From the NCBI GenBank assembly GCA_031291995.1, contig JARLHZ010000039.1, forward strand, positions 18,380 to 82,379: a stretch of DNA of 64,000 bases. The letters are read 5' to 3'. The notes below the pieces were generated by a model that searched no databases, was not told where the DNA came from, and was given only the letters and a program-made list of their open reading frames with translations. Shown in pieces: positions 39,331 to 64,000 of the stretch (positions within the stretch are counted from its first letter, which is position 1; every line of letters begins with the position of its first letter). The DNA is from Candidatus Doudnabacteria bacterium (GTDB lineage: Bacteria > Patescibacteriota > Doudnabacteria > UBA920). The translations under genes and the position numbers were made by a program.

Positions 39331-39336
39331 AAAAGT

Positions 39337-39867: not shown

Positions 39868-39875
39868 AAGTAATG

Positions 39876-39960: not shown

Positions 39961-39969
39961 CAGCAACTT

Positions 39970-40482: not shown

Positions 40483-40489
40483 AATTACA

Positions 40490-40590
40490 AATTAAAAATT
40501 TTAAATTTCAAGTCAAAATCCAATTCCAAATTTTTAAATTCAAAACTTTGGCATTGATTTGAAATTTGACATTTGACATTTAGCGCCGGG
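40490..40590. repeat. AT-rich palindromic intergenic module R3
   Basis: Arms AAATTTCAAGTCAAAATCCAA and TTGATTTGAAATTTGACATTTGACATTT are complementary. Paralogue of R2. Confidence 0.65.
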
Positions 40591-40612
40591 TCTTTAGCAA
40601 ATCCACTTTATA

Positions 40613-43009: not shown

Positions 43010-43019
43010 CAAACCAGTA

Positions 43020-43125
43020 TCATTCCGAGCGACCCTGAGGGAGCCGCCATCGGCGGCGAGCCGAAGGGGAGCCGAGGAATCCCTTAACTCTGATAATAAG
43101 TTTAATGTTAAGGGATCCCTCCGCT
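43020..43125. repeat. dispersed palindromic repeat, copy 3 (CATTCCGAGCG...GAGGAATCCCTTAAC / GTTAAGGGATCCCTC)
   Basis: Variant of the CATTGCGAG family with a 15-bp terminal hairpin. Confidence 0.6.
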
Positions 43126-44616: not shown

Positions 44617-44692
44617 AACAGCTCTTTTTTCGCATTTATGGCCTGTTTTTGGGAATTGTAAAAAAATTATTTGAAAATATGGGAAAAATTGC

Positions 44693-44720
44693 TTGACAAA
44701 GGACGCAATAGGACTAGAAT
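44693..44720 (+). promoter_or_regulatory. sigma-70-like promoter (TTGACA-16-TAGAAT)
   Basis: Consensus hexamers about 210 nt upstream of the adhesin ATG, followed by a terminator-like hairpin. Confidence 0.5.
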
Positions 44721-44842
44721 GAAGAAAAGAAAAAATAGAAAAAAGTCATCTTGGTGCGTGTGAGGGGATGGCTTTTTACTTTTGATTGTCCCGGTAAATA
44801 ATCCCGGGAAAATATTTCGCCATTACTATAGTGCACGTGAGG

Positions 44843-44880
44843 CCCCAAAAGAGACCCAGCGTCTTTTTTGGGTTTTTTTA
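44843..44880 (+). terminator. terminator or attenuator hairpin in the adhesin leader
   Basis: Stem CCAAAAGAGAC...GTCTTTTTTGG followed by GTTTTTTTA, 50 nt before the ATG at 44930. Confidence 0.5.
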
Positions 44881-44929
44881 TTTATTAACAATTTAATTAA
44901 CGCGTAAGAAATTACGCAAGAAAAAATAT

Positions 44930-49138: not shown

Positions 49139-49158
49139 TTATTAACCCCCGAACGATT

Positions 49159-50577: not shown

Positions 50578-50631
50578 ATTTATCAAAATAAGTAAAGCCA
50601 GGACGTCTCTCGTGGTCGTCCTGGCTTTTGT

Positions 50632-51462
50632 TTAAATGCCTGCTTTAAGCGCTTTCTTTTTGGCGATGCCGAGTAAGAGCAGCGCCGTGCCGCCGAGTCC
50701 CCAGGTTGCCGGCTCCGGGGTTGACCCGAGTGTGCTCGCATTGAGATTATCAATGTTGAGCGTCGGTGCGCCGTTCTGGGCGACCGCGAACCACACAAAT
50801 CCCGTGCCGCTAAGGTTTGCGCTGGTCAGGGTTTCTCCGTCGGAGTTGCCCAGTACCGCAGCGGTGCCAATCAGATTTGTTCCAGACAGGATATTCATGT
50901 TGGTCTGAACCAGGTCACCTGGATGGCTTCCTTTGGCGAAAGTCGCCTGGAAGGTATACCATCCCGGATTGTTGAGCACGGACATTGTGCCGCCCCCGTC
51001 AACCGCGACGCTTACCGAACTTCCATCATACGCCAGGCGGAAATTGTGCTCGTCGCCACAGGCGCTGTTGCCGCAACCGACGCCGTCCGGAATAGAGGTT
51101 CCGGGTGTGAAGTCAATCCAATAGTTGGTTCCGGCGCTGCTGGGATCAATATAGACGCTGATTGACTCGCTAAACGCACTGCCGGGGTAAACAGTCGGGT
51201 CGCCGCCGGCGCCAAAATAGGAAAATCCGTAATCGCCATACCCGCTCATGTAATCGTTAGGGGAGTTGGTGATTTGCGCGTAGAATCCACCGCTGGCAGC
51301 AGTGATTCCACCCGTTCCGGAGGCGACGCGGGTGATTGTCCCAACGGGAGACCCGCCATTTGACGGCGTCCAACCGCTGGTATTGGATTCGAACCCTTGA
51401 TTGAATATGGTTCCAGCCTGAGAAAGGCCGGCGAACATCAGGAAACATACAAACGTTTTCAT
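50632..51462 (-). CDS. secreted protein with C-terminal PEP-CTERM-type sorting signal
   Basis: Signal peptide MKTFVCFLMFAGLSQA. C-terminus ...TPEPATWGLGGTALLLLGIAKKKALKAGI (PEP + TM + basic tail). GAGAGG 6 nt upstream of ATG(MKTF). Confidence 0.7.
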   Translation of the reverse strand: MKTFVCFLMFAGLSQAGTIFNQGFESNTSGWTPSNGGSPVGTITRVASGTGGITAASGGFYAQITNSPNDYMSGYGDYGFSYFGAGGDPTVYPGSAFSESISVYIDPSSAGTNYWIDFTPGTSIPDGVGCGNSACGDEHNFRLAYDGSSVSVAVDGGGTMSVLNNPGWYTFQATFAKGSHPGDLVQTNMNILSGTNLIGTAAVLGNSDGETLTSANLSGTGFVWFAVAQNGAPTLNIDNLNASTLGSTPEPATWGLGGTALLLLGIAKKKALKAGI

Positions 51463-51804
51463 TCTGCCTCTCGATTTTTTGTAAACAACTCTTCGGTTTA
51501 GGCTCCGCTTAAAGTTCAAACGAAACCAAAAAAGCAGGCTTCAATATTCCTCCTGCCAAGTGTACATTTTACCAATAACATCGGGTTTTGGCAAGACTGC
51601 CTAACTAACCATTACAACCGGACATAAAAAAGTTGTGACAGAGCGCACAGGTCATAAGGCGAGACACTCTGAATGATAGTTAAAGTTGGAATAATATACT
51701 TTTATTATGTCCAAGCCGCGACGTGGAAGAATTTTTCAGTCAGCAGTTCCCTTACTTGCAAAAAATCCCCGGGGGTGTATATTATTCGTGAAAGGATTTT
51801 ACCT

Positions 51805-52110
51805 ATGTCACAAGCATATTTTGACGAGGGGACCAAAATCCAAACAAAAAAGTGCGTGGCGAATTTATTTAAAGTTTTGACAAAATTGCCGCCCCGGGCG
51901 GCCATGAGTTTGTACGGGGATTTGCTGACCGAAAGCGAAGCGGTCATGCTGGCCAAGCGTTTGGAAATCGCGGTCAGTCTGCTTTCGGGACAAACTTACC
52001 GAAACATCCAGCTTCGGCTGAACGTTACTCCTGGTACAGTGGCGCAAATAGCCAGAGTATTAAAAATTTCGGGCGAAGGTTTTAAAACGGCCCAGCAATT
52101 ATTTTTATAG
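51805..52110 (+). CDS. TrpR-like (YerC/YecD family) DNA-binding protein
   Basis: LYGDLLTESEAVMLAKRLEIAVSLLSGQTYRNIQLRLNVTPGTVAQIAR. RBS GAAAGGA before ATG(MSQAY). Confidence 0.65.
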   Translation: MSQAYFDEGTKIQTKKCVANLFKVLTKLPPRAAMSLYGDLLTESEAVMLAKRLEIAVSLLSGQTYRNIQLRLNVTPGTVAQIARVLKISGEGFKTAQQLFL

Positions 52111-52462
52111 GCCGTGTCGCTGCCTTCGGGAGAATCGGTACAACAGGAAACTTACGGTAAATTATAGATTGCTATCATTCGACGTAGCATTAAATATTCA
52201 TTGTCATCGGGTATTATTCGGAGAGATTGTCTACAGGTTGTCCACAGAAAGAAACTTAAATGGTTAAATTCCCAATGAATCGCGGGTTATCTCCCGGTCT
52301 TAAAATTTGCATTTTTTTTGGTTTCCTTTTACAATTGCTATACGTTGAGTTTTAATCACGCTTCCATTCGCAGGGTTTAATGGTTAAGTAAATATTAAAA
52401 CTGACCGGGAATTTTGAAACTATAGTTCTTTTTCCGGACAGAAAGCCCTTGAGCTTCGCCAT

Positions 52463-52792
52463 ATGTTCGAAAATAAAATGACACATTGCCCCAAGTGCCA
52501 CAAGCCGGTATTAAACGCCGGACAATTTTGGGGCTGCGCGCAATTTACCATTAAGTGTCCGTGGTGCCAGGCGGTTTTGACCCTGAGCGTTCAGCAGCAG
52601 GTTTCCGCCAAACTCAAAATTCCGGAGCAACCCGGCGGCTATCAGCAACAGCCGGAGTATGCCGCGGCGGCTCACGACGATTCGGGTTTTGAAACCCCGA
52701 TGCCATCGTCTTCGCGCAACGCCGGCTCCGACCAGGACGGCTTTAAAGTTGTCGGTTATATTTACCCCCAGGGGGACAAGCCCCCGGGTTAA
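52463..52792 (+). CDS. small zinc-ribbon protein
   Basis: CPKCHK...CPWCQ pair of CxxC motifs, then a low-complexity tail. Confidence 0.5.
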   Translation: MFENKMTHCPKCHKPVLNAGQFWGCAQFTIKCPWCQAVLTLSVQQQVSAKLKIPEQPGGYQQQPEYAAAAHDDSGFETPMPSSSRNAGSDQDGFKVVGYIYPQGDKPPG

Positions 52793-52971
52793 AAAAGATT
52801 AAAATTTAGTGCGGACTAAGTGAGCCGCGGGACTATGAGCGCCCACCTTGAACAGTTTCGATATTTATCGAAGCTAAGCAAGGTGGGCTCTTATTTTTTA
52901 AACAGAGCCGTGTAATATAAAGGTCGAACACAACAGAAAAAATAATTAAAGTTAGATAAGGAAATAAATTT

Positions 52972-53565
52972 ATGAAAAAAGTTATAGCATCTTTAGGCGC
53001 CGCCGCTATGGTCCTGACCTTTGCCGGAACAGCGTTTGCTTCTTCCAGCACCGGCAGCCACAGCCCGGTAAAGACAAAGGTCATTACCATCACCGGCACC
53101 ACCGTCACCAACACCAATGAACTGTCCATTGAAAATATGCAGAGCTCCGCTGCCTTTACCGGCGGCAACGTGATTGCCACCCACACCGGCGACGTTAACG
53201 GCGGCAGCAACACCAGCGGTAACGCCACTGCCACCGCCGCCGTCAATAACAGCGGCAACGGCATTCAGAGCACCGTGACCACGAACAGCAGCGAAGCCAC
53301 TCCGGCATCGCCCAGCGATTCGTCCAACGGCAGCAACAGCAAAGTAACCAGCACCGTTGTCACCAAGGACGGCGCGACCGTTACCAACGGCAACTTAGCC
53401 GAAGTCTCAAATGGCCAGTCGGCCATTTCCGGCACCGGTCTGAACGCGGTTACCAGCTGGACCGGCGACCTTAACGGCGCCAGCAACGCGTCCGGCACAG
53501 CCATGGGAGCCACATCGGTTGTTAATATGTTCAATCCGATAGTTTCCGTCGTGACCCGCAACTAG
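52972..53565 (+). CDS. secreted protein carrying the SGGN-GDVN-TSG repeat module
   Basis: Signal peptide. FTGGNVIATHTGDVNGGSNTSGNATATAAV and TSWTGDLNGASNASGTAMGA repeats. Terminator-like hairpin downstream. Confidence 0.7.
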   Translation: MKKVIASLGAAAMVLTFAGTAFASSSTGSHSPVKTKVITITGTTVTNTNELSIENMQSSAAFTGGNVIATHTGDVNGGSNTSGNATATAAVNNSGNGIQSTVTTNSSEATPASPSDSSNGSNSKVTSTVVTKDGATVTNGNLAEVSNGQSAISGTGLNAVTSWTGDLNGASNASGTAMGATSVVNMFNPIVSVVTRN

Positions 53566-53789
53566 TTTTAACCGATTTTGCCGAAACGTTTTTGGCGAGC
53601 CGGTTAAAAAAACGCGGCGGACATTACGATATACCGTAGTGTCCGCCGCGGACAGCATTTTTCCAACTAAACTCAAGACTACTTTTATCCGCAACTTATG
53701 GCGGCTAAAAGCGGTTTTAGGTTTAACCCGCGGTTTTTTCGGGATTAAAACCAAGGCCGTTAATCTAGTAATCTTAAAATAATAATTTT

Positions 53790-56700
53790 ATGTTTAATTT
53801 ATTTAAAAAAACTTCAGCCAATAAGAGGTCATCATGTTTTGGTATCGGCATGTTGCGGGTTTTCGCGATTGTGGTTTTAACTGTCTTGGTTATCCAGCCA
53901 TTAGCGGTTTTGGCCGATAGCCCCACGACCACTACTATTACTGACGCTAACAATAACCAAAATCCTGCCCAGCAGCAGGTGACCGGCGGCAGTCCGGACG
54001 CCTCAACCACGCCCGTCACCCAGGTAATATACACGGTCACGACCAGCACGCCGGACCAAATCGCGCCGGTGAATTCCACCACCACCCCGGCAGACGCGGG
54101 AACCGCGGCCAGCTCCACGGACCCGAGCCTGCAAAATGCTACCTCCACTCCCGATACATCCACCACCACGCCGGATACCTCCGCTACCACCACCCCGGAC
54201 TCAACTTCTACCACGACTCCGGGCGGCACGATTGCGCCCTGCACGGATACCGGCGCTTCAACTTCCACTCCGGACACAACCAGCACCACCACGCCGGACT
54301 CCCAAACTGCGTCCGGCTCCAACCAGCCCTGCGGCCAGACCGCGACCACCACCGACAGCTCCGCTCTGTCCGATCCCAACGCGGCGACCACCACTTTGGA
54401 TTCGACCACCACTTTGGATCTTTTAAATTCCAATAATTTGGACGCCACCACCACGGCAACCACCACGGCCAACAGCGGTTTAAACGATACCGTGTCCAAT
54501 AACGGCGATATAAATTACGCGACCACCACCACCGGAGACGTTAACGTTTACGCCAATGTTTTGACAGTCGCGAACATTAATTTGGTGAATTCCCAGATTG
54601 TGCAGATGAATGACAGTTTTAACAACCTGGCCGCTGACTTGTATTTAAACCAGCAGGAGCTTTCGCCGGGTCAGCGCACCCAGGATTTGGTTAATCCGAT
54701 TTGCAGCAGCGGAGGAGTGAGCTGCCAGAGCATTACCACTTTTAAGCTGACAAACCAGAATTCGGCTAACGTGAGCAATAACATCGCCGCCTCGGGCAAC
54801 AGCGGCGGCAACGCGATTGCCGCGAGCGGCGACGTAAACCACAGTTCCATAACTACCGGTAACGTTAACGCGGTGGTCAACATTCTTAACATTGTCAATG
54901 CCAATGCCGTAAATTCCACCTGGACGATTGTAACCTTTAACGTGTTCGGCAACTGGACCGGCGATTTGGTTATGCCTTCGGAATTATATTTTACCGATGC
55001 CATGTCCGTGGGTGCCAACAGCAACAGCGACATTTCCCAGGTGCAAAAAGTTATATTAGACGTCAACAACAGCAATTCATCCAAAATTACCAATAATGTT
55101 TCGGTTCAGACCGATACCGGAAATAATACGGTTCAGGGGATTTCCGACATTAAGGGGAACTCCGGGGATATTAATGACGCCCAGGTCAGCACCGGAACCA
55201 GTACCGCGACTTCCGCCGTCACCAACTTAAGCAACCTGACCGCGTATAACAGTTCCTGGTTTTTAGGCTTGATTAATATTTTAGGGCAGTGGTCGGGAAA
55301 AGTATATTCATTGCCCAGTAACGTGCAGGCCAATTATAATCCCACCGGCTTTACTTTTGTTTCCGCTTCAAATCCGCCATCCGCGGGAATTCCCAGCCAA
55401 TTATTGGCGCAGTTATCCGAGCCTAACGCGACCACCACCACGGCCCAGGACAACAGTTCGCTCCAGCCCACCGGTACCAGCACGCTGGACAGTACCGCTA
55501 CCGTACAAATGGATAACAGCAACCAGGCGACAATAAATAACAATGTGACCGTGGATGCTACCACCGGCCAAAACGCCATCGCCGCCGGCGGGGACAGCAA
55601 TCATACCGCCATTACCACCGGCAATGCCACGGCGCTGGCCAATATTTTAAATTTTGCCAACGCCAACCTTATAAATTCCGATTTATATGTTGGCCTGGTG
55701 AATATTTTTGGAAATTGGCAGGGCAATATAGTGTTCGGTTATCCCGATTTGTCCGTTAGCCAGAGCTCCGTTCAAAACCAGATTGCGGGCGGCGCTGGCG
55801 CTCCGTTAACGGTTAACGCCGCGTTTGCCAACCAGGGTAACGGTTCCATGGCCGATACCCAATTGGAGTGGAAGTTTGACCCGACGCTGTTTACGCTGGC
55901 AAATGTTCAGGCTTCCTCTACCGACCCGAATAACGGGGCGGTACAAGCGACTTCAACATACCAAACTATCGCCCCGGGTGATATTCGAGTCGATTTGGGC
56001 GGGCTGGAACCGAACCAAAATGGCAACGCGGTATTCCAGCTGCAAAGCCTGGGGGATCAGACCAACGATCCGGCCGACAATTTTTTTGCCAACATTTTTG
56101 GAAACGGCCCGGAAATTAATTTGACCAACAACCAGAATAATTTAAGCGTCTTGCCGGCAACCGGCACGCCTGTTTCCGTTACTACAAATAATTCGTCAGA
56201 CTCGGGTACGCAAAACACCCAAACCAATTCAAACAACAGCTCCGCTCCGTCTGGTGGTGGTGGCGGCGGTGGTGGTGGTGGCGGCGGGGGCGGGGGATTT
56301 GTATCCAATAGTTCTTCCGGCCAAATTGGGGTCTACCCGGATGTCCTGAATATTTATAAGACTAATTCCGCTACCGGACCGGTCAATCCGGGCATGACGA
56401 TTAATTTTGTCATTACCGTTGACAACGACGGCAATAATTCCTTAAGTAACCTGGTCGTTTACGATACCATGACCGGGCCGGACGGCAGTACCATCAGTTC
56501 GAAAAATTTTAGCGTTCCGGATATGGCTACCCGCCAGGAGGCTTACGTTAAATATTCCCTGGCAATTTCCCCGAACGCTCCGGCTGGGAATTATACCAAC
56601 TCGGCTTATGTTCAGGGCTTGGACGGTAACTTAATAACGGTGCGCAGCAAAACCACGGCATTAAGCACCTTTACCATTGCCGGGCCGGCCGTTATCAACT

Positions 56701-57368
56701 CCCAAAATCCCGATGGCACCTTGAATTCCTCCACTTCTCCCCTGACTTTGATAAATCCGGACAAATCACCGGACAGCAGTTCAACAACCCCGATTTCCGC
56801 CACGTGGCCTTTGGGATTCTTGAAGATGGAATATGGGCAGGTTTTGGGGGCATCCTGCGTACAGCCAAGTTTTGCCGCAGATTTGCGCTATGGTTTTCAC
56901 TCTAACGATGTAAAAGCTTTGCAGACTTATTTGAATAATAACGGTTATACCCTGGCCGCCAGCGGTCCCGGTTCACCAGGGCACGAAACTTTTTATTTCG
57001 GCCCCCTGCTCAAAGCCGCGCTGTCCCGCTTCCAAAAAAATAACGACATTACAGAGCTTGGGTTTTTTGGCTCCGCCACCCGCTCATTCCTTAACGGTTT
57101 GTTAAATACCACCGGCGCGGCTTTTTGTCCGGCTCCAGTGGCCCCGCCGGCAACGCCAAAAAAGCCGATAGCGGCCGCAAAGCCACATGTGCTTGCTTCA
57201 AAGGGCGGGAAGGCTTCCCCGGTGGTAAAAACCAAGCCGGCCCCAAACGCCAATTTAGGCGCGGCAAAAGTCGAACATAATGCGGGGTTGTCCGGAAAGC
57301 CCGTTGTCAACACTCCCGCAGTAACCGGCATCTGGTCAGGACTGGCGAAATTATTCAGTTTTCAATAG
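53790..57368 (+). CDS. giant secreted T/S/P-rich protein with GDVN modules, DUF11 domain, Gly15 tract and C-terminal peptidoglycan-binding domain
   Basis: Signal/TM. Repeated GDxN-containing units. VYPDVLNIYKTN...MTINFVITVDNDGNNSLSNLVVYD (DUF11). LRYGFHSNDVKALQTYLNNNGY...PLLKAALSRFQKNN (PG_binding_1). Confidence 0.8.
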   Translation: MFNLFKKTSANKRSSCFGIGMLRVFAIVVLTVLVIQPLAVLADSPTTTTITDANNNQNPAQQQVTGGSPDASTTPVTQVIYTVTTSTPDQIAPVNSTTTPADAGTAASSTDPSLQNATSTPDTSTTTPDTSATTTPDSTSTTTPGGTIAPCTDTGASTSTPDTTSTTTPDSQTASGSNQPCGQTATTTDSSALSDPNAATTTLDSTTTLDLLNSNNLDATTTATTTANSGLNDTVSNNGDINYATTTTGDVNVYANVLTVANINLVNSQIVQMNDSFNNLAADLYLNQQELSPGQRTQDLVNPICSSGGVSCQSITTFKLTNQNSANVSNNIAASGNSGGNAIAASGDVNHSSITTGNVNAVVNILNIVNANAVNSTWTIVTFNVFGNWTGDLVMPSELYFTDAMSVGANSNSDISQVQKVILDVNNSNSSKITNNVSVQTDTGNNTVQGISDIKGNSGDINDAQVSTGTSTATSAVTNLSNLTAYNSSWFLGLINILGQWSGKVYSLPSNVQANYNPTGFTFVSASNPPSAGIPSQLLAQLSEPNATTTTAQDNSSLQPTGTSTLDSTATVQMDNSNQATINNNVTVDATTGQNAIAAGGDSNHTAITTGNATALANILNFANANLINSDLYVGLVNIFGNWQGNIVFGYPDLSVSQSSVQNQIAGGAGAPLTVNAAFANQGNGSMADTQLEWKFDPTLFTLANVQASSTDPNNGAVQATSTYQTIAPGDIRVDLGGLEPNQNGNAVFQLQSLGDQTNDPADNFFANIFGNGPEINLTNNQNNLSVLPATGTPVSVTTNNSSDSGTQNTQTNSNNSSAPSGGGGGGGGGGGGGGGFVSNSSSGQIGVYPDVLNIYKTNSATGPVNPGMTINFVITVDNDGNNSLSNLVVYDTMTGPDGSTISSKNFSVPDMATRQEAYVKYSLAISPNAPAGNYTNSAYVQGLDGNLITVRSKTTALSTFTIAGPAVINSQNPDGTLNSSTSPLTLINPDKSPDSSSTTPISATWPLGFLKMEYGQVLGASCVQPSFAADLRYGFHSNDVKALQTYLNNNGYTLAASGPGSPGHETFYFGPLLKAALSRFQKNNDITELGFFGSATRSFLNGLLNTTGAAFCPAPVAPPATPKKPIAAAKPHVLASKGGKASPVVKTKPAPNANLGAAKVEHNAGLSGKPVVNTPAVTGIWSGLAKLFSFQ

Positions 57369-57401
57369 AGATTAATTCGCAGAAAAGTTAAGCATACGGC
57401 C

Positions 57402-58010
57402 ATGGCTATTAAGAGGGCACAGAATTTTTATCGAACTGCCACAGTTTCGGCGGCTGTCACGCTGCTGGCAGTTTGGCTGTTACCGGCTTTGGCTTTTGCC
57501 GATTCGTATGTTAGCGTCTCAACCGGCAACAGCAGCAGCGAGTCGGTAATAAACAATTCGGAGAGCAATTCTTCGTCGCGGACTTATATTTCCGCCACGG
57601 CCAACGGCCAAAACCGGACGGTAATTATTAACGGCGACGGAACTTCCACGGATAATTCGGTTTTTGTCCGCTTAAGATCGCAAAATGGTATCGCGACCAG
57701 CACAATAAGGATTAAAACCCCGGCCGGGAATTACTACCAGTTGATTCCGAACCGAACCCGTAACTCCACTACTACCATCCAAATAAAACCGGACCGGCCG
57801 ATATTTGCCAGTTCAACCGCTCCGGGCCTTAACACCACCAGCCAGGTTTACCTTCCCTGCGCCCCGGAATCGGGTTCCGTCTTTTACCGATTATTCCCGT
57901 TTTTATTCGGACGCCATTGTCCCATGGCCGCCTCGACTTCCGCGGTTTCGGCAGGCGTCCCGGCCAACACCGGCTGGACCGGAAAATTGTTTGGTTGGTT
58001 TAACTGGTAA
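57402..58010 (+). CDS. small secreted protein
   Basis: Signal peptide with ALAFADS. S/N-rich. 202 aa. Confidence 0.55.
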   Translation: MAIKRAQNFYRTATVSAAVTLLAVWLLPALAFADSYVSVSTGNSSSESVINNSESNSSSRTYISATANGQNRTVIINGDGTSTDNSVFVRLRSQNGIATSTIRIKTPAGNYYQLIPNRTRNSTTTIQIKPDRPIFASSTAPGLNTTSQVYLPCAPESGSVFYRLFPFLFGRHCPMAASTSAVSAGVPANTGWTGKLFGWFNW

Positions 58011-58036
58011 GGAGCTTAAAATTAAATTTTGAATTT

Positions 58037-60730
58037 ATGGGTATTCGCGCTACAAAAAAATCAGGGCAATCGGCAACGGTTTTTGGATTGTCTGCGGCGG
58101 CCATAATAGCCGCGCTGTGGCTAAATTTTATCCCCCAGCCGATACAGGCGGCGGGAGCGGCGCTGGCACCGAGCGGTATTGGTAACTATGATCAATGGCA
58201 GGCAAATACCGGAAATAAAATCAGCGCCGTGGCCTCCAACGACGGCGACAGCTCATTTATAACTTCTTCCAGCACTTCGGCCGCCGAGACTTATAGTTTT
58301 CCGGGAGCCGGTTTGCCGGCCGGCGCCACGGTTAATTCCATAACTTTGACCGCGCAGGTAAAAAATGGCGGTTCGATTTTTGTTTGGCCGGCTGTACAGC
58401 TGCTTTTGGAAAACGGCGCGAATTCCGCCAATGACGGTGCCGCGGGACATATTGTAATTGATAATTCGGCATATACGCCGATTTCCTGGACAATGGCCGA
58501 TAATCCCTTAACGAGCGCGCCGTGGACGCTAAGCGATGTTAATGCCTGGACGGTTAATTTTGGCGTCGGCGTGGCCGCGGCAAGCGCCGGTACGGCCATG
58601 GTAACCCAAATTTCCTTAAGCGTTGATTATAATCCGCCGCCGGCGGCCAATCCGCCCCTGCCGGCCCGGACTTGCGGGTTGGATATCGCCCTGGTCCTGG
58701 ATAACTCCGGCAGTATTAACGGCAGTCTGCCGCAAATGAAGAGCGCGGTTAATAATTTTATTTCATCGTTGCTCCCCGGCACACCCACGGATTTTTCCGT
58801 AACATATTTTAACACCGCCGGACATGTCCAGCAGGTATTCACAAACAGCACCACCAGCCTGGCGAGCGCCATAAATAACATTCCGGCTTCCGGCGGAGAC
58901 ACCAACTGGGAAGACGGACTGCTCAAAGCCGCGGGTACATTTGACCCCCGGCCCGGCAGCCTCCATCCAAATTTGATAATTTTTGCCTCTGACGGCGTAC
59001 CGAATAAATATAACGTTTACGGCTCGGGCGGCAGCGTGACCGGCACGCAGGGCAATGGCAGCAACGGCGGCGACCCGCTGGCGCTGTCCGCGGCCGTCAC
59101 GGAAGCCAACGCCATTAAAACTTCCGGCACCAGAATTGTGACGTTGGGCATAGGCAGCAGCATTAATCAAGCCAATATGGTAGCCATTTCCAGCTCGGAC
59201 GCTTACAACAGCGTTTCCGATTTCAGCCATTTGGCTCCGGTTTTGCAATCTTTGGCCGCCGGCATGTGCGGCGGAACAATCACCATAAATAAAAAAATCG
59301 ACGCCGACGGAAATTTGGCGACGACAAACGACCAGACGAACGGCGGTGCGGGCTTTACTTTTGACATTACTCCGGGCTACGGCGGCCAGATTACCGACGC
59401 AAACGGACAGACTCCGGCCGTGGCCGTAACCGCCGGCAGTTACAGCGTGGCCGAAAGCTCCATCCCGGGCGGTTACGCTCCCTTGGGCGGCAGTTGCAGC
59501 GGCGCGACCAATAACGGTTCCCCGAGCGGCACCGCGGTTAGCGGCCTGCAGATTGGGTTAAACGATATTGTCGCCTGTATCTTTTACAATTCGCCAATCG
59601 GCGGGGGCGGGGGCGGTCCGGGTACCACCACCCCGACGAGTACGGATATCAGTATTTTAAAATCCGTTGATAAGCCCGCGGTTAATGCGGGTAATAAGGT
59701 TAATTTTACTTTAGCGGTTACCAATTACGGGCCGGCCAACGCGACCGGAGTTATGGCTTCCGATACGCTGCCTTCCGGCCTGGTGTTTGTCTCGTCCACC
59801 TCCACTTTAGGCAGTTATAATGCCACTACCAGCCTGTGGAATATTGGCAACCTCGCCGTGGGAGCCTGGGTCACGACTACCATAACCGCCGCGGTTACCG
59901 CCAGTTCCAGCGGACAAAGTTTAACCAATACCGCCGCGGTCAGTTCTGTCACCCCGGATTTTAATCCCGCCAACAATTCCTCCAGCATTTCGGTTTCAGT
60001 CGGCGGCGGCGGGGGAGGGGGGTGCACCTCAAATTGCGGCGGCGGCACATCCACTCTGCAATCGGATTTGTCGATAACCAAAACCGTGGACCATTCCTCG
60101 CCCAATCCCAATGATGCCATAAATTATATTTTGGTCGTTAAAAATTTGGGACCGGACGGCGCCACCGGCGTTGTTGCCACCGACACGTTGCCTTCCACGG
60201 TGACGTTTGTGTCGTCAACCTCCACCTTGGGCAGTTTTGACTCTACCACCAGTTTGTGGACGATTGGCAATTTGGCTAACGGCGCATCGGCCACTACCAC
60301 CATTACTGCTTCTGTTAACAGTTCCGCGGCCGGGCAAAGTATTGCCAACACCGCTTCAGTAACTTCCGCTATCCAAGATCCAAATTTATCCAACAACAGC
60401 TCTTCCGCCGGCGGCACCGTTGCCGGTTCGGGGTCGGGCGGCGGCACCACCAACGGGGGATGCTCGGGCAGCTGCGGCGGCGGCTCCCCATCCGGCGGCG
60501 GGGGAGGCGGGGGAGGCGGCGGGGCGCCTGGAGCCGGGCTGACATTTGGCGGCGGCCAGGTGTTGAGTACTTCCACCGGGCTATCTATGATATTGCCCGC
60601 GACGGCGCCACAGGTTTTGGGAGCCTCGACATTATTGCCGCGCACCGGCGAGCCGGTAACCGAACTTGGCCTGCTGTTTTTACTTAGCATTGCGGGCGGC
60701 CAGATTCTGTTAAAAAGGCGGAAAATTTAA
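58037..60730 (+). CDS. LPXTG-anchored surface protein with vWA domain and two DUF11 repeats
   Basis: N-terminal signal. MIDAS motif DIALVLDNSGSI. DUF11 units (LAVTNYGPANATGVMASDTLPSGLVFVSSTSTLGSY; LVVKNLGPDGATGVVATDTLPSTVTFVSSTSTLGSF). C-terminal LLPRTGEP + TM + KRRKI. Confidence 0.85.
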   Translation: MGIRATKKSGQSATVFGLSAAAIIAALWLNFIPQPIQAAGAALAPSGIGNYDQWQANTGNKISAVASNDGDSSFITSSSTSAAETYSFPGAGLPAGATVNSITLTAQVKNGGSIFVWPAVQLLLENGANSANDGAAGHIVIDNSAYTPISWTMADNPLTSAPWTLSDVNAWTVNFGVGVAAASAGTAMVTQISLSVDYNPPPAANPPLPARTCGLDIALVLDNSGSINGSLPQMKSAVNNFISSLLPGTPTDFSVTYFNTAGHVQQVFTNSTTSLASAINNIPASGGDTNWEDGLLKAAGTFDPRPGSLHPNLIIFASDGVPNKYNVYGSGGSVTGTQGNGSNGGDPLALSAAVTEANAIKTSGTRIVTLGIGSSINQANMVAISSSDAYNSVSDFSHLAPVLQSLAAGMCGGTITINKKIDADGNLATTNDQTNGGAGFTFDITPGYGGQITDANGQTPAVAVTAGSYSVAESSIPGGYAPLGGSCSGATNNGSPSGTAVSGLQIGLNDIVACIFYNSPIGGGGGGPGTTTPTSTDISILKSVDKPAVNAGNKVNFTLAVTNYGPANATGVMASDTLPSGLVFVSSTSTLGSYNATTSLWNIGNLAVGAWVTTTITAAVTASSSGQSLTNTAAVSSVTPDFNPANNSSSISVSVGGGGGGGCTSNCGGGTSTLQSDLSITKTVDHSSPNPNDAINYILVVKNLGPDGATGVVATDTLPSTVTFVSSTSTLGSFDSTTSLWTIGNLANGASATTTITASVNSSAAGQSIANTASVTSAIQDPNLSNNSSSAGGTVAGSGSGGGTTNGGCSGSCGGGSPSGGGGGGGGGGAPGAGLTFGGGQVLSTSTGLSMILPATAPQVLGASTLLPRTGEPVTELGLLFLLSIAGGQILLKRRKI

Positions 60731-60810
60731 AGACGGCCTGAAAAATTTCGCGGTTTCAGGCCGGGCGTTTTCCTTTGCCCTAAACCCGCAAGCCCCACTA
60801 TAATAAAGGC

Positions 60811-61416
60811 ATGGACAGCAAACAGGCCATAAAAATTTTAAAAACCCTGGCTTTGACCGCCATAATTTTCGCGGGGCTGTTGGTAATATTTAACTATAAT
60901 TATTTTTGGCAGAATATCCGTTATGATTTGTACGGGGTAAAGCAGGCGGCATTCCCCGCGGCGCCGGTACCTTCCGCCGCCGGGGCGCATTCTTATATTT
61001 TAGCCGTTCCGTCCCTGGGAATTTCCGCCCCGGTTATTTACGCCACCGCGACCGGGGAAACGGCCTTTCAGGCCGCCCTGAAAAACGGCGTCGCGCACTA
61101 TCCGGGTACGGCCGATCCCGGCCAGACGGGAAATTGTTATATTTTCGGGCACTCTTCCGATTATATCTGGAGCAGCGGGCATTATAAAAACGTTTTTGCG
61201 ATTTTGCCTAAAATAAAAAAAGGGGCGGATATAATTATCAGCGGCCGGCAAAACCAGTATACCTATACCGTAACGGACAGTCGGATGGTTTCTCCGGGCG
61301 ATTTGTCCGTCTTAAGCCAGCAGACCGGCCAAAAGAAAATTTTAACTTTGCAAACCTCCTATCCCATAGGTACCGCCTTGGCCAGGTGGATTGTTGTCGC
61401 CGAAGTGAGCAGATAA
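60811..61416 (+). CDS. sortase-fold protein with catalytic Cys replaced by Ser
   Basis: N-terminal TM. Aligns with SrtA across the His (YIFGHSS vs LAGHTF), the Cys strand (KILTLQTSYP vs KQLTLITCDD) and the Arg (ARWIVVAEV vs EKRKIFVATEV). The codon at the Cys position is TCC. Confidence 0.7.
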   Translation: MDSKQAIKILKTLALTAIIFAGLLVIFNYNYFWQNIRYDLYGVKQAAFPAAPVPSAAGAHSYILAVPSLGISAPVIYATATGETAFQAALKNGVAHYPGTADPGQTGNCYIFGHSSDYIWSSGHYKNVFAILPKIKKGADIIISGRQNQYTYTVTDSRMVSPGDLSVLSQQTGQKKILTLQTSYPIGTALARWIVVAEVSR

Positions 61417-61703: not shown

Positions 61704-62927
61704 ATGATGATTCCACTAAAGGATAAAATCGAAACAGAGCTGGCCAAAGCATCCGGCATTTCCATTATCAGCTTAGTGCACGATTTGATTATTTACGCTC
61801 ATAGCATCCGCTCTTCCGATATACATTTGGACCCCGCGGAGAAGTCGTTGAGATCCCGGTTTCGGGTCGACGGCGTCCTGCGCGATACTTTCAGTTTTCC
61901 CAAACATATCCATTCTGAAATTATTTCCCGGATTAAAATTCTGTCCGGACTGCGGACGGACGAACACCAGGCCGCCCAGGATGGTCGGTTCCGTTTGAAT
62001 GTGGAAGGTCAAAGCCCGCTGGACATCCGCGTGTCCATTGCCCCGACCTATTACGGAGAAAACGCGGTGCTAAGGCTGTTGGCCGACCGGGCGGAAAATT
62101 TTACTTTGGAAACCCTGGGTTTTAGTGAACAAAACCGCAGCATCATCGCTAAAGCCGTCAACAGGCCTTACGGGATGATTTTGGTTACCGGCCCCACGGG
62201 CAGCGGCAAGACCACCACGCTCTATACCATTTTAAAAATGCTGAATACGCCGCAGGTTTCGATTGTGACCATAGAAGACCCGGTGGAATACGCGGTGGAA
62301 GGCGTGGAGCAGATTGGCGTGAACCCGCGCACCGGCCTGACTTTTGCCCATGGCTTGCGCAGCATTTTAAGGCAGGATCCCAACATTATTATGGTCGGGG
62401 AAATCCGCGACGCGGAGACCGCCGGAATCGCCATAAATGTGGCGCTGACCGGGCATCTGCTGTTGTCCACCCTGCACACCAACGACCCGGCCACGACTTT
62501 GCCGAGATTGCTTGACATGAAAATAGAAAGTTATTTGGTGGCGTCCACGGTTAACGTGGCTGTCGGCCAGCGGCTGGTCCGAAAAATTTGCCCGAACTGC
62601 AGGCGGCAGGAAAAAATTACCGCCGCCCAATCCAAAAATCTGGCGGAAATTTTTGGTTTGCAGCCACCGCACGACCGCGCCATGCTTTATTCCGGCAAAG
62701 GCTGTGCCGACTGCAATTATTCGGGCTACCGCGGCCGGATTGCCCTGCACGAAATTATTGAAATTTCAGAACCGATTCGCGAAGCGATTTTGCGAAAAGC
62801 CACGGCGCGCGAAATCAACAGTATTGCCATTGCGCAGGGAATGATAACTATGATGGAGGACGGACTGGAAAAGGCACTGGCGGGCATTACGACTATTGAA
62901 GAGGTACTCAGGGTTGGGCATGAATGA
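61704..62927 (+). CDS. type II secretion / type IV pilus assembly ATPase (GspE/PilB family, short form)
   Basis: Walker A GPTGSGKTTTLYT, Asp box IIMVGEIRD, His box TGHLLLSTLHTND, tetracysteine CPNC...CADC. Confidence 0.85.
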   Translation: MMIPLKDKIETELAKASGISIISLVHDLIIYAHSIRSSDIHLDPAEKSLRSRFRVDGVLRDTFSFPKHIHSEIISRIKILSGLRTDEHQAAQDGRFRLNVEGQSPLDIRVSIAPTYYGENAVLRLLADRAENFTLETLGFSEQNRSIIAKAVNRPYGMILVTGPTGSGKTTTLYTILKMLNTPQVSIVTIEDPVEYAVEGVEQIGVNPRTGLTFAHGLRSILRQDPNIIMVGEIRDAETAGIAINVALTGHLLLSTLHTNDPATTLPRLLDMKIESYLVASTVNVAVGQRLVRKICPNCRRQEKITAAQSKNLAEIFGLQPPHDRAMLYSGKGCADCNYSGYRGRIALHEIIEISEPIREAILRKATAREINSIAIAQGMITMMEDGLEKALAGITTIEEVLRVGHE

Positions 62928-63059
62928 AATTAATTGATATTGATAGATATTTGTTGATATTAAGATATTAGTAGATATTGGGATATTAATTGATATTAAG
63001 AGGTTAGTGCCGCAACGAGTAGGTCCAATTTATTTTTTGCGAATATCGATTTTAATTGT

Positions 63060-64000
63060 ATGTCCAAATTTTCAAGTAAGGAACAAATTTTGTTTGCCAA
63101 GCGCCTGGGTTTTTTGATGCGGGCCGGCGTGCCGGTTTTGGAAAGCTTGGAATTGTTAAAAAGCCAGACGAAGTCCAATTCGAGCCGGCTAATTTTTTCC
63201 AGGATAATTTTTGACGTATCGAATGGGCGGGCTTTATCCTCGGCGCTGGCCGCGCGCAATAATATTTTTGGCGATTTTGCCGTTAATATTATCCGGGTGG
63301 GGGAGCAGAACGGAATTTTATGCGATAACCTGAATTATTTGGCCGAAGAGCTTAGAAAGAAACAGCAAATGAAGCGAAAAATTTTAAGCGCCATGTTTTA
63401 TCCGGCGTTCATAATCTGCGCCACTCTGCTGCTGACGGTCGGCCTGACGATATTTGTTTTTCCCAAAGTCCTGCCGATTTTTTCCAGCGTTAATTTAAGT
63501 TTGCCCTTAAGTACCAAGATACTGATTTTTGCCAGCAATTTCTTAATTAACCGCGGTTTATACTTAACGATTTGTTTAATTGCGGCGGCGGCGGCCGTAA
63601 TTTTTTTATTGAAGCGTCCGAAGTTCAAAATGGCCGCCGAACAAATAGCGTTAAAAACTCCATTAGCCGGAAATATTTCGCAAAATTATTATCTTTCCAA
63701 CTTTTGCCGTACTCTGGGACTTTTACTGAAAGGGGATAGCCGTCTGGATGAAGCTATAAAAATTACCGCGGCTACCACCGAGAATCTTGTTTATCGCCGG
63801 GAGCTTGAGGGCGTTGGCCGGTTTGTGGACAAAGGCGGCAAGATTTCCGTTTACCTGCTCGAACGTCCGGGACTATTTCCCGATATGCTCGGCCATATGG
63901 TGGCTGTTGGCGAAACCGCCGGCAACCTCAGCGAAACTTTTTTATATTTGGCGGATTTGTACGAAGCCGAAGTTGATGATTTAACCAAAAATCTTTCGGG
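63060..64000 (+). CDS. GspF/PilC-like inner-membrane platform protein (3'-truncated by window end)
   Basis: Manual translation from ATG 63060: MSKFSSKEQILFAKRLGFLMRAGVPVLESLELLKSQ... with TM segments and a second GspF-like repeat (TLGLLLKGDSRLDEAIKI). No stop before position 64000. Confidence 0.7.
   Translation, partial: MSKFSSKEQILFAKRLGFLMRAGVPVLESLELLKSQTKSNSSRLIFSRIIFDVSNGRALSSALAARNNIFGDFAVNIIRVGEQNGILCDNLNYLAEELRKKQQMKRKILSAMFYPAFIICATLLLTVGLTIFVFPKVLPIFSSVNLSLPLSTKILIFASNFLINRGLYLTICLIAAAAAVIFLLKRPKFKMAAEQIALKTPLAGNISQNYYLSNFCRTLGLLLKGDSRLDEAIKITAATTENLVYRRELEGVGRFVDKGGKISVYLLERPGLFPDMLGHMVAVGETAGNLSETFLYLADLYEAEVDDLTKNLS

What the first reader, a model, noticed from the sequence alone, without database searches (positions are those of the whole stretch)
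60811..61416. Sortase homologue with serine at the catalytic cysteine position, directly downstream of an LPXTG vWA/DUF11 protein
The protein aligns with SrtA through the His strand (YIFGHSS), the nucleophile strand and the Arg strand (ARWIVVAEV). The TLxTC nucleophile is TLQTS, with a TCC codon. The preceding 897-aa gene ends in a textbook sortase substrate signal (LLPRTGEP + TM + KRRKI). Either this is a serine-nucleophile sortase variant, a catalytically dead pseudo-sortase, or a one-base error (TCC vs TGC). A serine-sortase would be mechanistically notable.
Basis: seen in the sequence. Interest (0 to 1): 0.7.

Follow-up and report, generated by a model that had tools for sequence, protein, structure and literature searches.

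The report
Sortases with serine replacing catalytic cysteine
This gene belongs to a large, strictly conserved group of cell-surface "sortase" enzymes from ultra-small Patescibacteria in which the universal catalytic cysteine is always a serine, so it is either the first natural serine-based sortase or a conserved inactive look-alike, not a sequencing error.

Summary
ORF 60811..61416 (+) is a sortase-fold protein. His114 and Arg192 are kept, and Ser183 (TCC, 61357..61359) sits exactly where sortases carry the nucleophilic Cys. It is not an error: the identical gene was assembled from three separate sequencing runs, and all 229 Ser-type relatives I aligned carry Ser there. Their synonymous codons are saturated (TCT/TCG/TCC/TCA plus AGY). 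More than half of these proteins contain no cysteine at all.

The nearest Cys-type relatives (Saccharibacteria, Berkelbacteria, Peregrinibacteria; about 42% identical) have [I/M]-T-C. The Ser clade has Q-T-S-[Y/W]-P plus clade-specific Asp117 (GHSSD) and Tyr110.

In at least 67 of 86 cases the Ser-type gene lies directly downstream of a surface protein ending in LP[RVKG]TG + TM + basic tail, mostly LPRTG. Three ORFs fuse substrate and enzyme. Cys-type relatives sit in housekeeping contexts with no such neighbour (0 of 5).

Best reading (about 0.55): an active, substrate-dedicated serine-nucleophile sortase. Main rival (about 0.3): a conserved, signal-binding pseudo-sortase. I found no description of this in the searchable literature. 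Chemistry, active-site geometry and co-occurrence with a Cys sortase in the same genome remain untested.

The parts
60811..61416 (+). Ser-type sortase gene (201 aa), identical to NCBI 'MAG: sortase [Candidatus Doudnabacteria bacterium]'
   Evidence: ORF. Pfam Sortase E=1.7e-23. Exact database match P0001. AF2 model pLDDT 90.8 with sortase fold.
60844..60909 (+). N-terminal membrane anchor (about residues 12-33, TLALTAIIFAGLLVIFNYNYFW), giving the N-in/C-out topology of sortases
   Evidence: Hydrophobic segment read from the sequence. AF2 predicts helix 3-27 and 29-41. The 'N(F/Y)xYFW' end of the segment is conserved in homologues. The topology is inferred.
61138..61140 (+). Tyr110 codon (TAT), four residues before the catalytic His on strand 4; specific to the Ser clade
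   Evidence: Tyr in 207/229 Ser-type (Phe in 20) and in 0/143 Cys-type relatives, which have V/F/A.
61150..61152 (+). His114 codon (CAC), the catalytic His of the sortase triad (GHSS motif)
   Evidence: Invariant in all Ser-type and Cys-type relatives. Aligned to the catalytic GH of solved sortases.
61159..61161 (+). Asp117 codon (GAT), His+3 (GHSSD); candidate third member of a Ser-His-Asp arrangement (hypothesis)
   Evidence: Asp in 96% of Ser-type, 7/30 of the nearest Cys-type and 1/113 of the farther Cys-type relatives. Geometry was not measurable because the tools return no coordinates.
61351..61353 (+). Gln181 codon (CAA), the x of TLxTC, two residues before the nucleophile position
   Evidence: Gln in 228/229 Ser-type and 0/143 Cys-type, which have I/M/L/V/F.
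61357..61359 (+). Ser183 codon (TCC) at the position of the sortase nucleophilic Cys
   Evidence: Alignments. Ser in 229/229 clade members. Codon usage in 87 genes: TCT 27, TCG 22, TCC 20, TCA 16, AGT 1, AGC 1. TCC is present in three independent run assemblies.
61384..61386 (+). Arg192 codon (AGG), the conserved sortase Arg on strand 8
   Evidence: Arg in 99-100% of Ser-type and Cys-type relatives. Aligned to the conserved Arg of solved sortases.
58037..60730 (+). Cognate substrate gene: 897-aa surface protein with VWA and two DUF11 domains and a C-terminal sorting signal
   Evidence: Pfam VWA E=9e-15 and DUF11 E=2.6e-65. The same-strand gene directly upstream of the Ser-sortase carries an LPxTG signal in at least 67/86 related cases.
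60635..60727 (+). Cell-wall sorting signal: LPRTG (60635..60649), hydrophobic segment, KRRKI tail; preceded by the clade-typical QVLGAST
   Evidence: Read from the sequence. Consensus over 68 substrates: P-Q-V-L-G-A-x-T-E-L-P-R-T-G-x-P, with L 65, P 68, R 56, T 64 and G 67 of 68.
60731..60810 (+). Intergenic spacer with a 9-bp hairpin plus a T-rich tail, followed by a promoter-like TTGCCC-18-TATAAT (60775..60804) ending 6 nt before the ATG
   Evidence: Fold -22 kcal/mol, z=-2.45. Promoter-like consensus match. These are consensus matches only; function is not shown.

Best explanation
The gene encodes a membrane-anchored, extracytoplasmic sortase-fold enzyme of a Patescibacteria clade centred on Doudnabacteria. 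In this clade the nucleophilic Cys has been permanently replaced by Ser (motif L-T-L-Q-T-S-[Y/W]-P), while the catalytic His (GHSSD) and Arg are retained. I think it is catalytically active and dedicated to the surface protein encoded immediately upstream. The proposed steps are all inferred. After secretion, the substrate is held in the membrane by its C-terminal hydrophobic segment and basic tail. The enzyme binds the extended signal (Q)VLGAxT(E)LPRTG. Ser183, activated by His114 (possibly oriented by the clade-specific Asp117, with Gln181 and Tyr110 supplying polar contacts), attacks the Thr-Gly bond and forms an acyl-oxyester intermediate. That intermediate is resolved by an amine of the cell-wall precursor, anchoring the protein, or less likely by water, releasing it. 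What is shown: the fold, the residue identities and their conservation, the derivation from Cys-type Patescibacteria sortases, the gene pairing with LPRTG substrates, and the fusions. What is inferred: catalysis by Ser, the roles of Asp117, Gln181 and Tyr110, and the acceptor.
For: (1) Ser sits at the nucleophile position in 229/229 clade members spanning down to 28% pairwise identity, and synonymous variation is saturated across both Ser codon families. (2) His114, Thr182, Pro185 and Arg192 are as conserved as in the Cys-type relatives, and the clade is no more divergent (mean identity 52% within Ser-type against 46% within Cys-type). This gives no sign of relaxed constraint. (3) There is no relocated nucleophile: 143/229 have no Cys in the catalytic domain and 120/229 have none anywhere. 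(4) The clade-specific changes cluster around the catalytic residues. Gln181 is 228/229 against 0/143, Tyr110 is 207/229 against 0/143, and Asp117 is 96% against 8/143. The nearest Cys-type relatives show intermediate states (GHSSD...TCWP). (5) At least 67 of 86 Ser-type genes lie directly downstream of a protein ending in LP[RVKG]TG + TM + basic tail, with Thr-Gly conserved in 64 and 67 of 68. None of 5 Cys-type relatives has such a neighbour. (6) Three representative ORFs less than 50% identical to one another (P0127, P0138, P0140) fuse substrate-LPRTG-TM-basic tail directly to the TM and Ser-sortase domain. This arrangement is topologically consistent and places both parts outside the cell. 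(7) A 57%-identical passenger carries LPRTG in L003 but a peptidoglycan-binding domain in the window (53790..57368). This suggests the LPRTG route is an alternative means of wall attachment. (8) About 230 Cys-type relatives sampled carry labels from other Patescibacteria lineages, none from Doudnabacteria, and none shares a contig length with the Ser-type contigs.
Against: There is no biochemical evidence. In canonical sortases the Cys is essential (established knowledge: SrtA C184A is inactive), and a hydroxyl is a much poorer nucleophile in a site built for a thiolate. Active-site geometry (Ser-His and His-Asp117 distances) could not be measured because no model coordinates are returned. The Gln181-Ser183 and Tyr110-Ser183 associations may reflect a single ancestral event, so they are not independent evidence of coupling. 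Position x of TLxTC also contacts the substrate in SrtA (my recollection), so Gln181 could concern LPRTG specificity rather than chemistry. I could not test whether the same genomes also carry a Cys-type housekeeping sortase that could do the real work. A signal-binding role could also conserve His, Arg and Ser.
Confidence: 0.55

Rival explanations
1. The protein is a conserved pseudo-sortase: catalytically dead, still binding the LPRTG signal of its neighbour. It would act as a retention factor, chaperone, substrate trap or regulator, while a Cys-type housekeeping sortase elsewhere in the genome does any anchoring.
For: The nucleophile that defines the family is missing. Cys-to-Ser is the classic substrate-trapping change in thiol enzymes (general knowledge). 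Closely related Cys-type sortases exist in Patescibacteria in housekeeping contexts near rplJ/rplL, murA-mreB and mraZ. A division of labour between paralogues is therefore conceivable. Binding alone could keep Arg, His and the groove conserved.
Against: Pseudoenzymes usually lose constraint on catalytic residues. Here His, Ser, Thr182, Pro185 and Arg are 98-100% conserved over more than 200 sequences and the Ser codons are saturated. New polar residues were gained and fixed next to the catalytic residues. Substrate-enzyme fusions are easier to explain by cleavage than by permanent binding. No Cys-type sortase was seen in the 64-kb window, in about 1.1 Mb of Ser-type loci, or on the same contigs, although this sampling is thin.
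Confidence: 0.3
2. The enzyme is active through Ser183 but acts mainly as a hydrolase. It would be a dedicated sorting-signal peptidase that cuts LPRT|G and releases or matures the surface protein rather than linking it covalently to peptidoglycan.
For: Oxyester acyl-enzymes favour hydrolysis over aminolysis compared with thioesters. This is the reason subtiligase was made by a Ser-to-Cys change (general knowledge). The one-enzyme, one-substrate cassette and the fusions would suit a maturation protease.
Against: Serine transpeptidases do exist, for example penicillin-binding proteins (general knowledge). The passenger that carries LPRTG in L003 carries a peptidoglycan-binding domain in the window, which points to wall attachment as the purpose. 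The substrates are adhesin-like proteins with VWA, DUF11 and SpaA-like domains, which normally stay on the cell.
Confidence: 0.12
3. The Ser is an artefact: a sequencing or assembly error (TGC read as TCC), or a misalignment that hides the true nucleophile.
For: TCC and TGC differ by one base.
Against: The identical gene appears in three independent run assemblies. Ser is present in 229/229 relatives with six different codons. Sequence-profile and fold evidence are consistent. Most members have no Cys at all.
Confidence: 0.01

Closest known systems
Cys-type Patescibacteria sortases with GHSS ... TL[I/M]TC[T/W/V]PxGT ... R (labelled 'class D' or 'class E sortase' by NCBI; for example P0224, P0240, P0233, P0342 from Berkelbacteria)
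   Same: About 42% mean identity over the catalytic domain, up to 57%. They share GHSS, N108, Y152, the T-x-P-x-G-T loop, Arg192, an N-terminal TM anchor and similar size.
   Different: They have Cys at position 183, I/M/L at 181, V/F/A at 110 and mostly G/N at 117. They sit in housekeeping neighbourhoods (rplJ-rplL, murA-mreB, mraZ) without an adjacent LPxTG gene in 5 of 5 cases examined.
Class D and class E sortases (NCBIfam NF033746, NF033747; structures 4D70 C. perfringens SrtD, 5GO5 Streptomyces SrtE, 9IOK T. fusca SrtE)
   Same: These are the best-scoring class models and solved structures. They share the eight-strand barrel, the placement of His and Arg, the membrane anchor, and (for class D) the habit of sitting next to the substrate gene.
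   Different: Scores are far below the class cut-offs (65.7 against 165, and 61.2 against 160). Ser replaces Cys. There is a 5-7 residue insertion after GH (SSDYxWSKGxYK). The substrate motif is LPRTG, not the LAxTG of class E or the LPxTA(TN) of class D.
Class A housekeeping sortase SrtA (S. aureus, S. pyogenes)
   Same: Recognises LPxTG followed by a TM segment and a basic tail. Same fold, with His and Arg in equivalent places.
   Different: About 22-25% identity. It uses a Cys nucleophile, is not substrate-linked, and serves many substrates.
Rhombosortase / GlyGly-CTERM system (from my own knowledge)
   Same: A serine peptidase that processes a C-terminal tripartite sorting signal: an existing example of a serine 'sortase' in the functional sense.
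   Different: It is unrelated in fold (an intramembrane rhomboid), cleaves within the membrane, and uses a different signal. It is an analogy only.
Natural and engineered Cys/Ser nucleophile exchanges: L,D-transpeptidases (Cys) against penicillin-binding proteins (Ser), 3C-type Cys proteases in the chymotrypsin fold, subtiligase S221C (from my own knowledge)
   Same: They show that acyl-transfer enzymes can work with either nucleophile, and that such swaps come with a remodelled environment.
   Different: None involves the sortase fold. No natural Ser-for-Cys sortase clade turned up in the searchable literature.

Membership tests
Sortase family (Pfam PF04203 / TIGR01076 / MEROPS C60) | Sequence match to the family model above the curated threshold | tested here: met
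   PF04203 83.2 bits against cut-off 26.6. TIGR01076 51.9 bits against 39.35.
Sortase family (Pfam PF04203 / TIGR01076 / MEROPS C60) | Eight-strand sortase beta-barrel fold | tested here: met
   AF2 model pLDDT 90.8, pTM 0.85, strand order as in sortases. The top 50 Foldseek PDB hits are all sortases, with E from 5e-12 to 2e-10 and target-normalised TM-scores of 0.54-0.80.
Sortase family (Pfam PF04203 / TIGR01076 / MEROPS C60) | Catalytic His after strand 4 and conserved Arg on strand 8 | tested here: met
   His114 and Arg192 align to the catalytic residues of 4D70, 8T28 and 5GO5, and are 99-100% conserved.
Sortase family (Pfam PF04203 / TIGR01076 / MEROPS C60) | Nucleophilic Cys in the TLxTC motif (cysteine transpeptidase) | tested here: not met
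   The motif is TLQTS, with Ser183 at the Cys column. Ser is found in 229/229 clade members, and most have no Cys anywhere.
Sortase family (Pfam PF04203 / TIGR01076 / MEROPS C60) | N-terminal membrane anchor with an extracytoplasmic catalytic domain | tested here: met
   A hydrophobic helix lies within residues 3-41 and is conserved across homologues. The topology itself is inferred.
Sortase family (Pfam PF04203 / TIGR01076 / MEROPS C60) | Cognate substrate with LPxTG-like motif + hydrophobic segment + basic tail | tested here: met
   The adjacent 897-aa protein ends LPRTG...KRRKI. The same arrangement holds in at least 67/86 related genes.
Sortase family (Pfam PF04203 / TIGR01076 / MEROPS C60) | Transpeptidase activity: cleavage at Thr-Gly and transfer to a cell-wall amine | not testable with these tools
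   This requires an enzyme assay or product mass spectrometry.
Defined sortase classes A-F (NCBIfam NF033745-NF033748, NF058671, TIGR03784) | Score above the class model's curated cut-off | tested here: not met
   Best scores: SrtD 68.8 against 140, class D 65.7 against 165, class E 61.2 against 160, class C 45.7 against 160, class F 28.2 against 166, class GN 22.8 against 158.
Class E sortase | Substrates with an LAxTG signal | tested here: not met
   Position 2 of the motif is Pro in 68/68 linked substrates.
Ser-His-Asp type serine hydrolase (mechanistic class, considered for the proposed mechanism) | Ser hydroxyl within hydrogen-bond distance of His, and His supported by an acidic residue | not testable with these tools
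   The candidate residues Ser183, His114 and Asp117 are conserved. However, structure prediction returns no coordinates, so no distances could be measured.

The most novel reading that the evidence does not exclude
These proteins are a natural class of serine-nucleophile sortases. In this reading the sortase barrel has been converted from Cys-His-Arg chemistry to a Ser-His(-Asp) arrangement with Gln181 and Tyr110 support. It forms an oxyester acyl-enzyme on LPRT|G and anchors (or, in the fused forms, self-processes) dedicated adhesins on the envelope of Doudnabacteria-type Patescibacteria. It would be the only sortase these organisms have.
Probability: 0.4. Interest if true: 0.85.

Novelty: new variant of a known kind. 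Interest (0 to 1): 0.72.

Why it matters
Sortases are defined in textbooks and databases as cysteine transpeptidases (MEROPS C60). Every mechanistic model, inhibitor programme and protein-engineering use ("sortagging") rests on the thiolate. A clade with an invariant Ser, present in the 80 best-matching of 389 species-representative genome hits, would matter in several ways if it is active.

- It would show that the fold supports oxyester chemistry.
- It would provide a natural series of intermediates (GHSS[G/N]..TCTP, then GHSSD..TCWP, then GHSSD..QTS[Y/W]P) for studying how a nucleophile is exchanged in evolution.
- It might yield oxidation-insensitive ligases with LPRTG specificity.

If it is inactive, it would be the first conserved pseudo-sortase, with a strictly linked client protein. 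Either way it bears on how the largely uncultured Patescibacteria attach adhesins to their envelope. It is also directly testable with a 155-residue soluble domain and a peptide.

Tried and rejected
- **Sequencing error.** Rejected.
- **Misalignment of the nucleophile strand.** Rejected by profile-to-PDB alignment and fold prediction.
- **A relocated catalytic Cys.** Cys109 occurs in only 34% of members. It lies an odd number of residues from His114 on strand 4, so probably on the opposite face. 143/229 members have no Cys in the domain at all. Rejected.
- **A second, Cys-type sortase nearby.** None in the window. None in 80 related loci of about 16 kb each; the six loci with two sortase genes have two Ser-type copies.
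- **Co-occurrence of Cys-type and Ser-type genes in one genome.** I tried to detect this by matching contig lengths and organism labels in two searches with Cys-type profiles. I found no shared contig and no Doudnabacteria label. Each list shows only 120 of more than 1200-3000 hits, so this is weak negative evidence, not a test.
- **Positional orthology of Ser-type and Cys-type genes.** Not supported. Ser-type cassettes lie near hrcA-grpE-dnaK-dnaJ, uvrA or pilin genes. Cys-type genes lie near rplJ/rplL-mraZ or murA-mreB.
- **A single origin of the Ser state.** An NJ tree built without columns 181 and 183 gives a clean Ser|Cys split. Exact-split bootstrap support is only 15/100. The departures are usually small (five or fewer of 258 taxa in 76 of 100 replicates, up to 16) and involve the same Cys-type sequences (P0225, P0240, P0247, P0231) near the base of the Ser clade. 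A single origin is the simplest reading but is not established. No maximum-likelihood software was available.
- **Active-site geometry.** Not obtainable, because the tools return no model coordinates.
- **Literature.** Searches for 'serine sortase', sortase with Patescibacteria/CPR, catalytic cysteine replaced by serine, pseudo-sortase, C184S, and CPR lineage names found no description of this clade. The library omits many subscription papers.
Full report
**1. The observation.** ORF 60811..61416 (+) encodes a 201-aa protein. It matches Pfam Sortase (PF04203) at E=1.7e-23 over residues 64-198, and the generic sortase model TIGR01076 above its cut-off. No class-specific model (A-F, GN) comes near its cut-off; the best are class D at 65.7 against 165 and class E at 61.2 against 160. 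Comparison with solved structures, by single sequence and by a 120-sequence profile, gives the same alignment each time:
- FGH on the catalytic GH;
- 'LTLQTSYPIG' on 'LTLVTCTPLG' (8T28, class C), 'MTIVTCTNRG' (4D70, class D) and 'LTLTTCEPEW' (5GO5, class E);
- Arg192 on the conserved Arg.

An AlphaFold2 model built on 120 homologues is confident (pLDDT 90.8, pTM 0.85). It has the sortase strand order, with Ser183 at the C-terminal end of strand 7, His114 just after strand 4 and Arg192 at the start of strand 8. Its best 50 Foldseek matches in the PDB are all sortases.

The Ser codon TCC is at 61357..61359.

The upstream 897-aa gene (58037..60730) has VWA and DUF11 domains and ends in LPRTG (60635..60649), a hydrophobic segment and KRRKI. 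The window holds no other sortase homologue and no other clear sorting-signal protein.

**2. It is not an error.** The protein is identical to an NCBI entry, 'MAG: sortase [Candidatus Doudnabacteria bacterium]'. The same 606-nt gene, with zero mismatches and TCC, was assembled independently from three sequencing runs: SRR23300977, SRR23300978 and SRR23300986.

All 120 best database homologues (45-100% identity) have Ser at this column. So do all 86 homologues found in 80 loci from GTDB species-representative genomes.

Across 87 genes the Ser codon is TCT 27, TCG 22, TCC 20, TCA 16, AGT 1 and AGC 1. Synonymous sites are therefore saturated while the amino acid never changes.

**3. Size and limits of the clade.** I searched the clade profile against 1.84 billion cluster representatives (50% identity clustering). 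It found 11,354 sortase-like proteins at E<=1e-3 and 818 at E<=1e-30. Among the best 150 hits, the 145 not already retrieved comprised 109 with Ser, 30 with Cys and 6 fragments. The first Cys-type hit appears at 181 bits. This locates the boundary of the clade.

The genome scan matched 389 stretches in species-representative genomes. The 80 best are all Ser-type. One of the two search patterns (GNx[YF]IFGHS) could also match some Cys-type genes, so 389 is an upper bound.

The organism labels are Doudnabacteria, 'Patescibacteria group' and one Uhrbacteria. There are also automated labels (Saccharibacteria, Gammaproteobacteria, Acidobacteriaceae) on contigs of CPR-like size, which I would not trust.

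**4. What distinguishes Ser-type from Cys-type relatives.** I compared 229 Ser-type with 143 Cys-type relatives.

| Position | Ser-type | Cys-type |
|---|---|---|
| 183 | Ser 229/229 | Cys 143/143 |
| 181 | Gln 228/229 | Gln 0/143 (I/M/L/V/F) |
| 110 | Tyr 207/229, Phe 20 | Tyr 0/143 (V/F/A) |
| 117 | Asp 96% | Asp 8/143 (7 of these among the 30 nearest) |
| 184 | Tyr/Trp 100% | Tyr/Trp 12/30 nearest, 4/113 farther (mostly Thr) |

Both groups share GHSS, Asn108, Tyr152, Thr182, Pro185, Gly187 and Arg192.

The nearest Cys-type proteins (for example P0224: GHSSD ... LMTCWPIGT) look like intermediates. This suggests the order GHSS[G/N]..[I/M]TCTP, then GHSSD..[I/M]TCWP, then GHSSD..QTS[Y/W]P.

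Mean identity over the catalytic domain is 52% within the Ser group, 46% within the Cys group and 42% between them, with a maximum of 57%.

A neighbour-joining tree built without columns 181 and 183 separates the two groups cleanly. Bootstrap support for the exact split is only 15/100. The departures are usually small and always involve the same Cys-type sequences near the base of the Ser clade. A single Cys-to-Ser change is the simplest reading, but it is not proven. The perfect Gln181/Ser183 association should therefore be read as a fixed synapomorphy, not as repeated independent covariation.

No Cys has moved elsewhere to take over. 143/229 Ser-type proteins have no Cys in the catalytic domain and 120/229 have none at all.

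**5. Genomic context.** In at least 67 of 86 cases the gene directly upstream on the same strand ends in a sorting signal. The motif is LPRTG in 59, LPVTG in 5, LPKTG in 2 and LPGTG in 1. Several apparent exceptions come from my ORF-boundary filter.

The signal is extended. The consensus is P-Q-V-L-G-A-x-T-E-L-P-R-T-G-x-P, followed by a median of 27 residues to the C-terminus.

The passengers are heterogeneous adhesin-like proteins of 188-1684 aa with DUF11, VWA and SpaA-like domains. They form the only neighbour family shared by most loci (63 of 80). All other neighbours are lineage-specific, occurring in 20 loci or fewer: hrcA-grpE-dnaK-dnaJ, uvrA and pilins.

The Cys-type relatives differ. 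I examined P0224, P0231, P0233, P0241 and P0240. They sit beside rplJ-rplL and mraZ-rsmH, or beside murA-mreB, with no sorting-signal gene nearby. So the Ser-type gene and its substrate form a two-gene cassette, whereas the Cys-type relatives look like housekeeping sortases.

Three representative ORFs less than 50% identical to one another fuse the two partners. The arrangement is passenger, LPRTG, hydrophobic segment, basic residues, then the sortase membrane anchor and the Ser-type domain (P0127, P0138, P0140). The predicted helical hairpin would place both passenger and enzyme outside the cell. This is a Rosetta-stone type of link between enzyme and substrate.

The window's 1192-aa protein (53790..57368) is 57% identical over about 830 residues to the LPRTG substrate of locus L003. 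It ends in a PG_binding_1 domain instead of a sorting signal. The same passenger therefore uses either a non-covalent peptidoglycan-binding module or the LPRTG route. This hints that the LPRTG route also leads to the wall.

**6. Does a Cys-type sortase coexist in the same genomes?** This is the key unknown. I found none in the window and none in about 1.1 Mb of Ser-type loci.

Two searches with Cys-type profiles returned about 230 Cys-type proteins. The organism labels that were present are Saccharimonadales, Berkelbacteria, CPR3, Peregrinibacteria, Parcubacteria and 'Patescibacteria group', never Doudnabacteria.

This fits the Ser-type having replaced the Cys-type in its lineage. But the lists show only a small fraction of all hits, so the evidence is weak.

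**7. Interpretation.** I judge the following features together more typical of a working enzyme than of a decayed one:
- His, Ser, Thr182, Pro185 and Arg are strictly retained;
- polar residues were gained and then fixed next to the catalytic His (Asp117, Tyr110) and next to the nucleophile (Gln181);
- no overall relaxation of constraint is visible;
- the gene is strictly paired with substrates whose scissile Thr-Gly is conserved;
- enzyme-substrate fusions exist.

I therefore favour an active serine-nucleophile sortase dedicated to its neighbour (about 0.55). Wall anchoring is the likelier outcome and hydrolytic release is a minor alternative (about 0.12).

A conserved, signal-binding pseudo-sortase remains a serious rival (about 0.3), for three reasons. 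A Cys-to-Ser change normally cripples thiol enzymes. Binding alone could maintain the groove residues. And I could not exclude a Cys-type partner elsewhere in the genome.

The proposed Ser183-His114-Asp117 arrangement is a hypothesis. No coordinates were available to measure it.

**8. Comparison with what is known.** The protein is a member of the sortase superfamily by sequence model, fold, His/Arg placement, membrane anchor and substrate type. It fails the defining cysteine-nucleophile feature, and it belongs to no defined class A-F.

Its closest relatives are unnamed Cys-type Patescibacteria sortases that NCBI labels class D or E.

Full-text searches for a serine sortase, for sortases in CPR/Patescibacteria, for pseudo-sortases and for Cys-to-Ser sortase variants found no description of this clade. 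Reviews in the library describe sortases as cysteine transpeptidases (PMC8225981, PMC8703055). Méheust et al. note only that a sortase family is widespread in CPR (PMC6744442). The library lacks many subscription papers, so prior mention cannot be fully excluded.

**Verdict.** This is a real, conserved and apparently undescribed variant of a well-known enzyme family. It is mechanistically notable whichever way the biochemistry falls, and it can be tested directly.

Noticed in passing
P0127 (517 aa), P0138 (673 aa), P0140 (919 aa), from the representative search: Single ORFs fuse an LPRTG-ending surface protein (motif + hydrophobic segment + basic residues) directly to the membrane anchor and Ser-type sortase domain. 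In P0127 and P0138 the junction is seamless rather than a simple read-through. These could be self-processing 'substrate-sortase' proteins. I did not check at DNA level whether they are real or products of lost stop codons.
   Followed up: partly
window 53790..57368 (+) compared with L003:5388-7910: The 1192-aa window protein, which ends in a PG_binding_1 domain, is 57% identical over about 830 aa to the LPRTG substrate paired with the Ser-sortase in another Doudnabacteria genome. The same passenger carries alternative wall-attachment modules.
   Followed up: partly
Sorting signals of 68 substrates (loci L001-L080 and window 60611..60649): The signal extends upstream of LPRTG. A conserved (P)QVLGAxT(E) block immediately precedes the motif and a Pro lies two residues after the Gly. 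This may be part of what the Ser-type enzyme recognises.
   Followed up: partly
window 60731..60810: Between substrate and sortase genes there is a stable hairpin (-22 kcal/mol, z=-2.45) with a T-rich tail. It is followed by a promoter-like TTGCCC-18-TATAAT that ends only 6 nt before the ATG. The sortase may be transcribed separately, perhaps as a leaderless or near-leaderless mRNA.
   Followed up: partly
window about 34495..60730 (+): A long same-strand array of large secreted or surface-protein genes: SpaA-like prealbumin folds, YDG/MBG repeats (1402 aa), a lamin-tail domain, a CHB_HEX/Fn3-associated protein, and several ORFs with no Pfam hit. Only the last gene of the array carries a sorting signal.
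   Followed up: partly
window 61704..64000 (+): A type IV pilus gene set follows the sortase directly: a T2SSE ATPase at 61704..62927, then T2SSF and a prepilin-like gene, seen in the longer Logan contig L087. PilC-like and pilin-like genes also lie near the cassette in several related loci.
   Followed up: no
window 56057..56308 and 60124..60690 (-), and the corresponding + strand genes: Long poly-Gly runs (15 Gly in the 1192-aa protein and 10 in the 897-aa substrate, which also has several shorter runs of 5-7) lie in the linker regions of the surface proteins. They create spurious poly-Pro ORFs on the opposite strand.
   Followed up: no
window 3791..5089 (-), 7330..8694 (-), 9246..10382 (-): A protein with a Peptidase_S74 (endosialidase chaperone, phage tail-fibre type) domain lies near a PIF1-like helicase and a DUF4143/AAA_14 ATPase. 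This may be a phage-derived or mobile patch.
   Followed up: no
Cys-type relatives' loci L081, L090, L091 and L085, L086: The Cys-type Patescibacteria sortases show conserved housekeeping synteny. One pattern is rplJ-rplL-sortase-(about 750-aa gene on the opposite strand)-ABC/FtsX-mraZ-rsmH-ftsI. The other is sortase-x-murA-mreB. This may reflect a link between sortase and cell-wall or division genes in these lineages.
   Followed up: partly
P0144 and similar proteins (P0139, P0142, P0145, P0149, P0151): Some Ser-type members carry a 100-170 residue insert between the membrane anchor and the catalytic domain. In P0144 it contains DxDxDG-type (thrombospondin type 3-like) calcium-binding repeats.
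   Followed up: no
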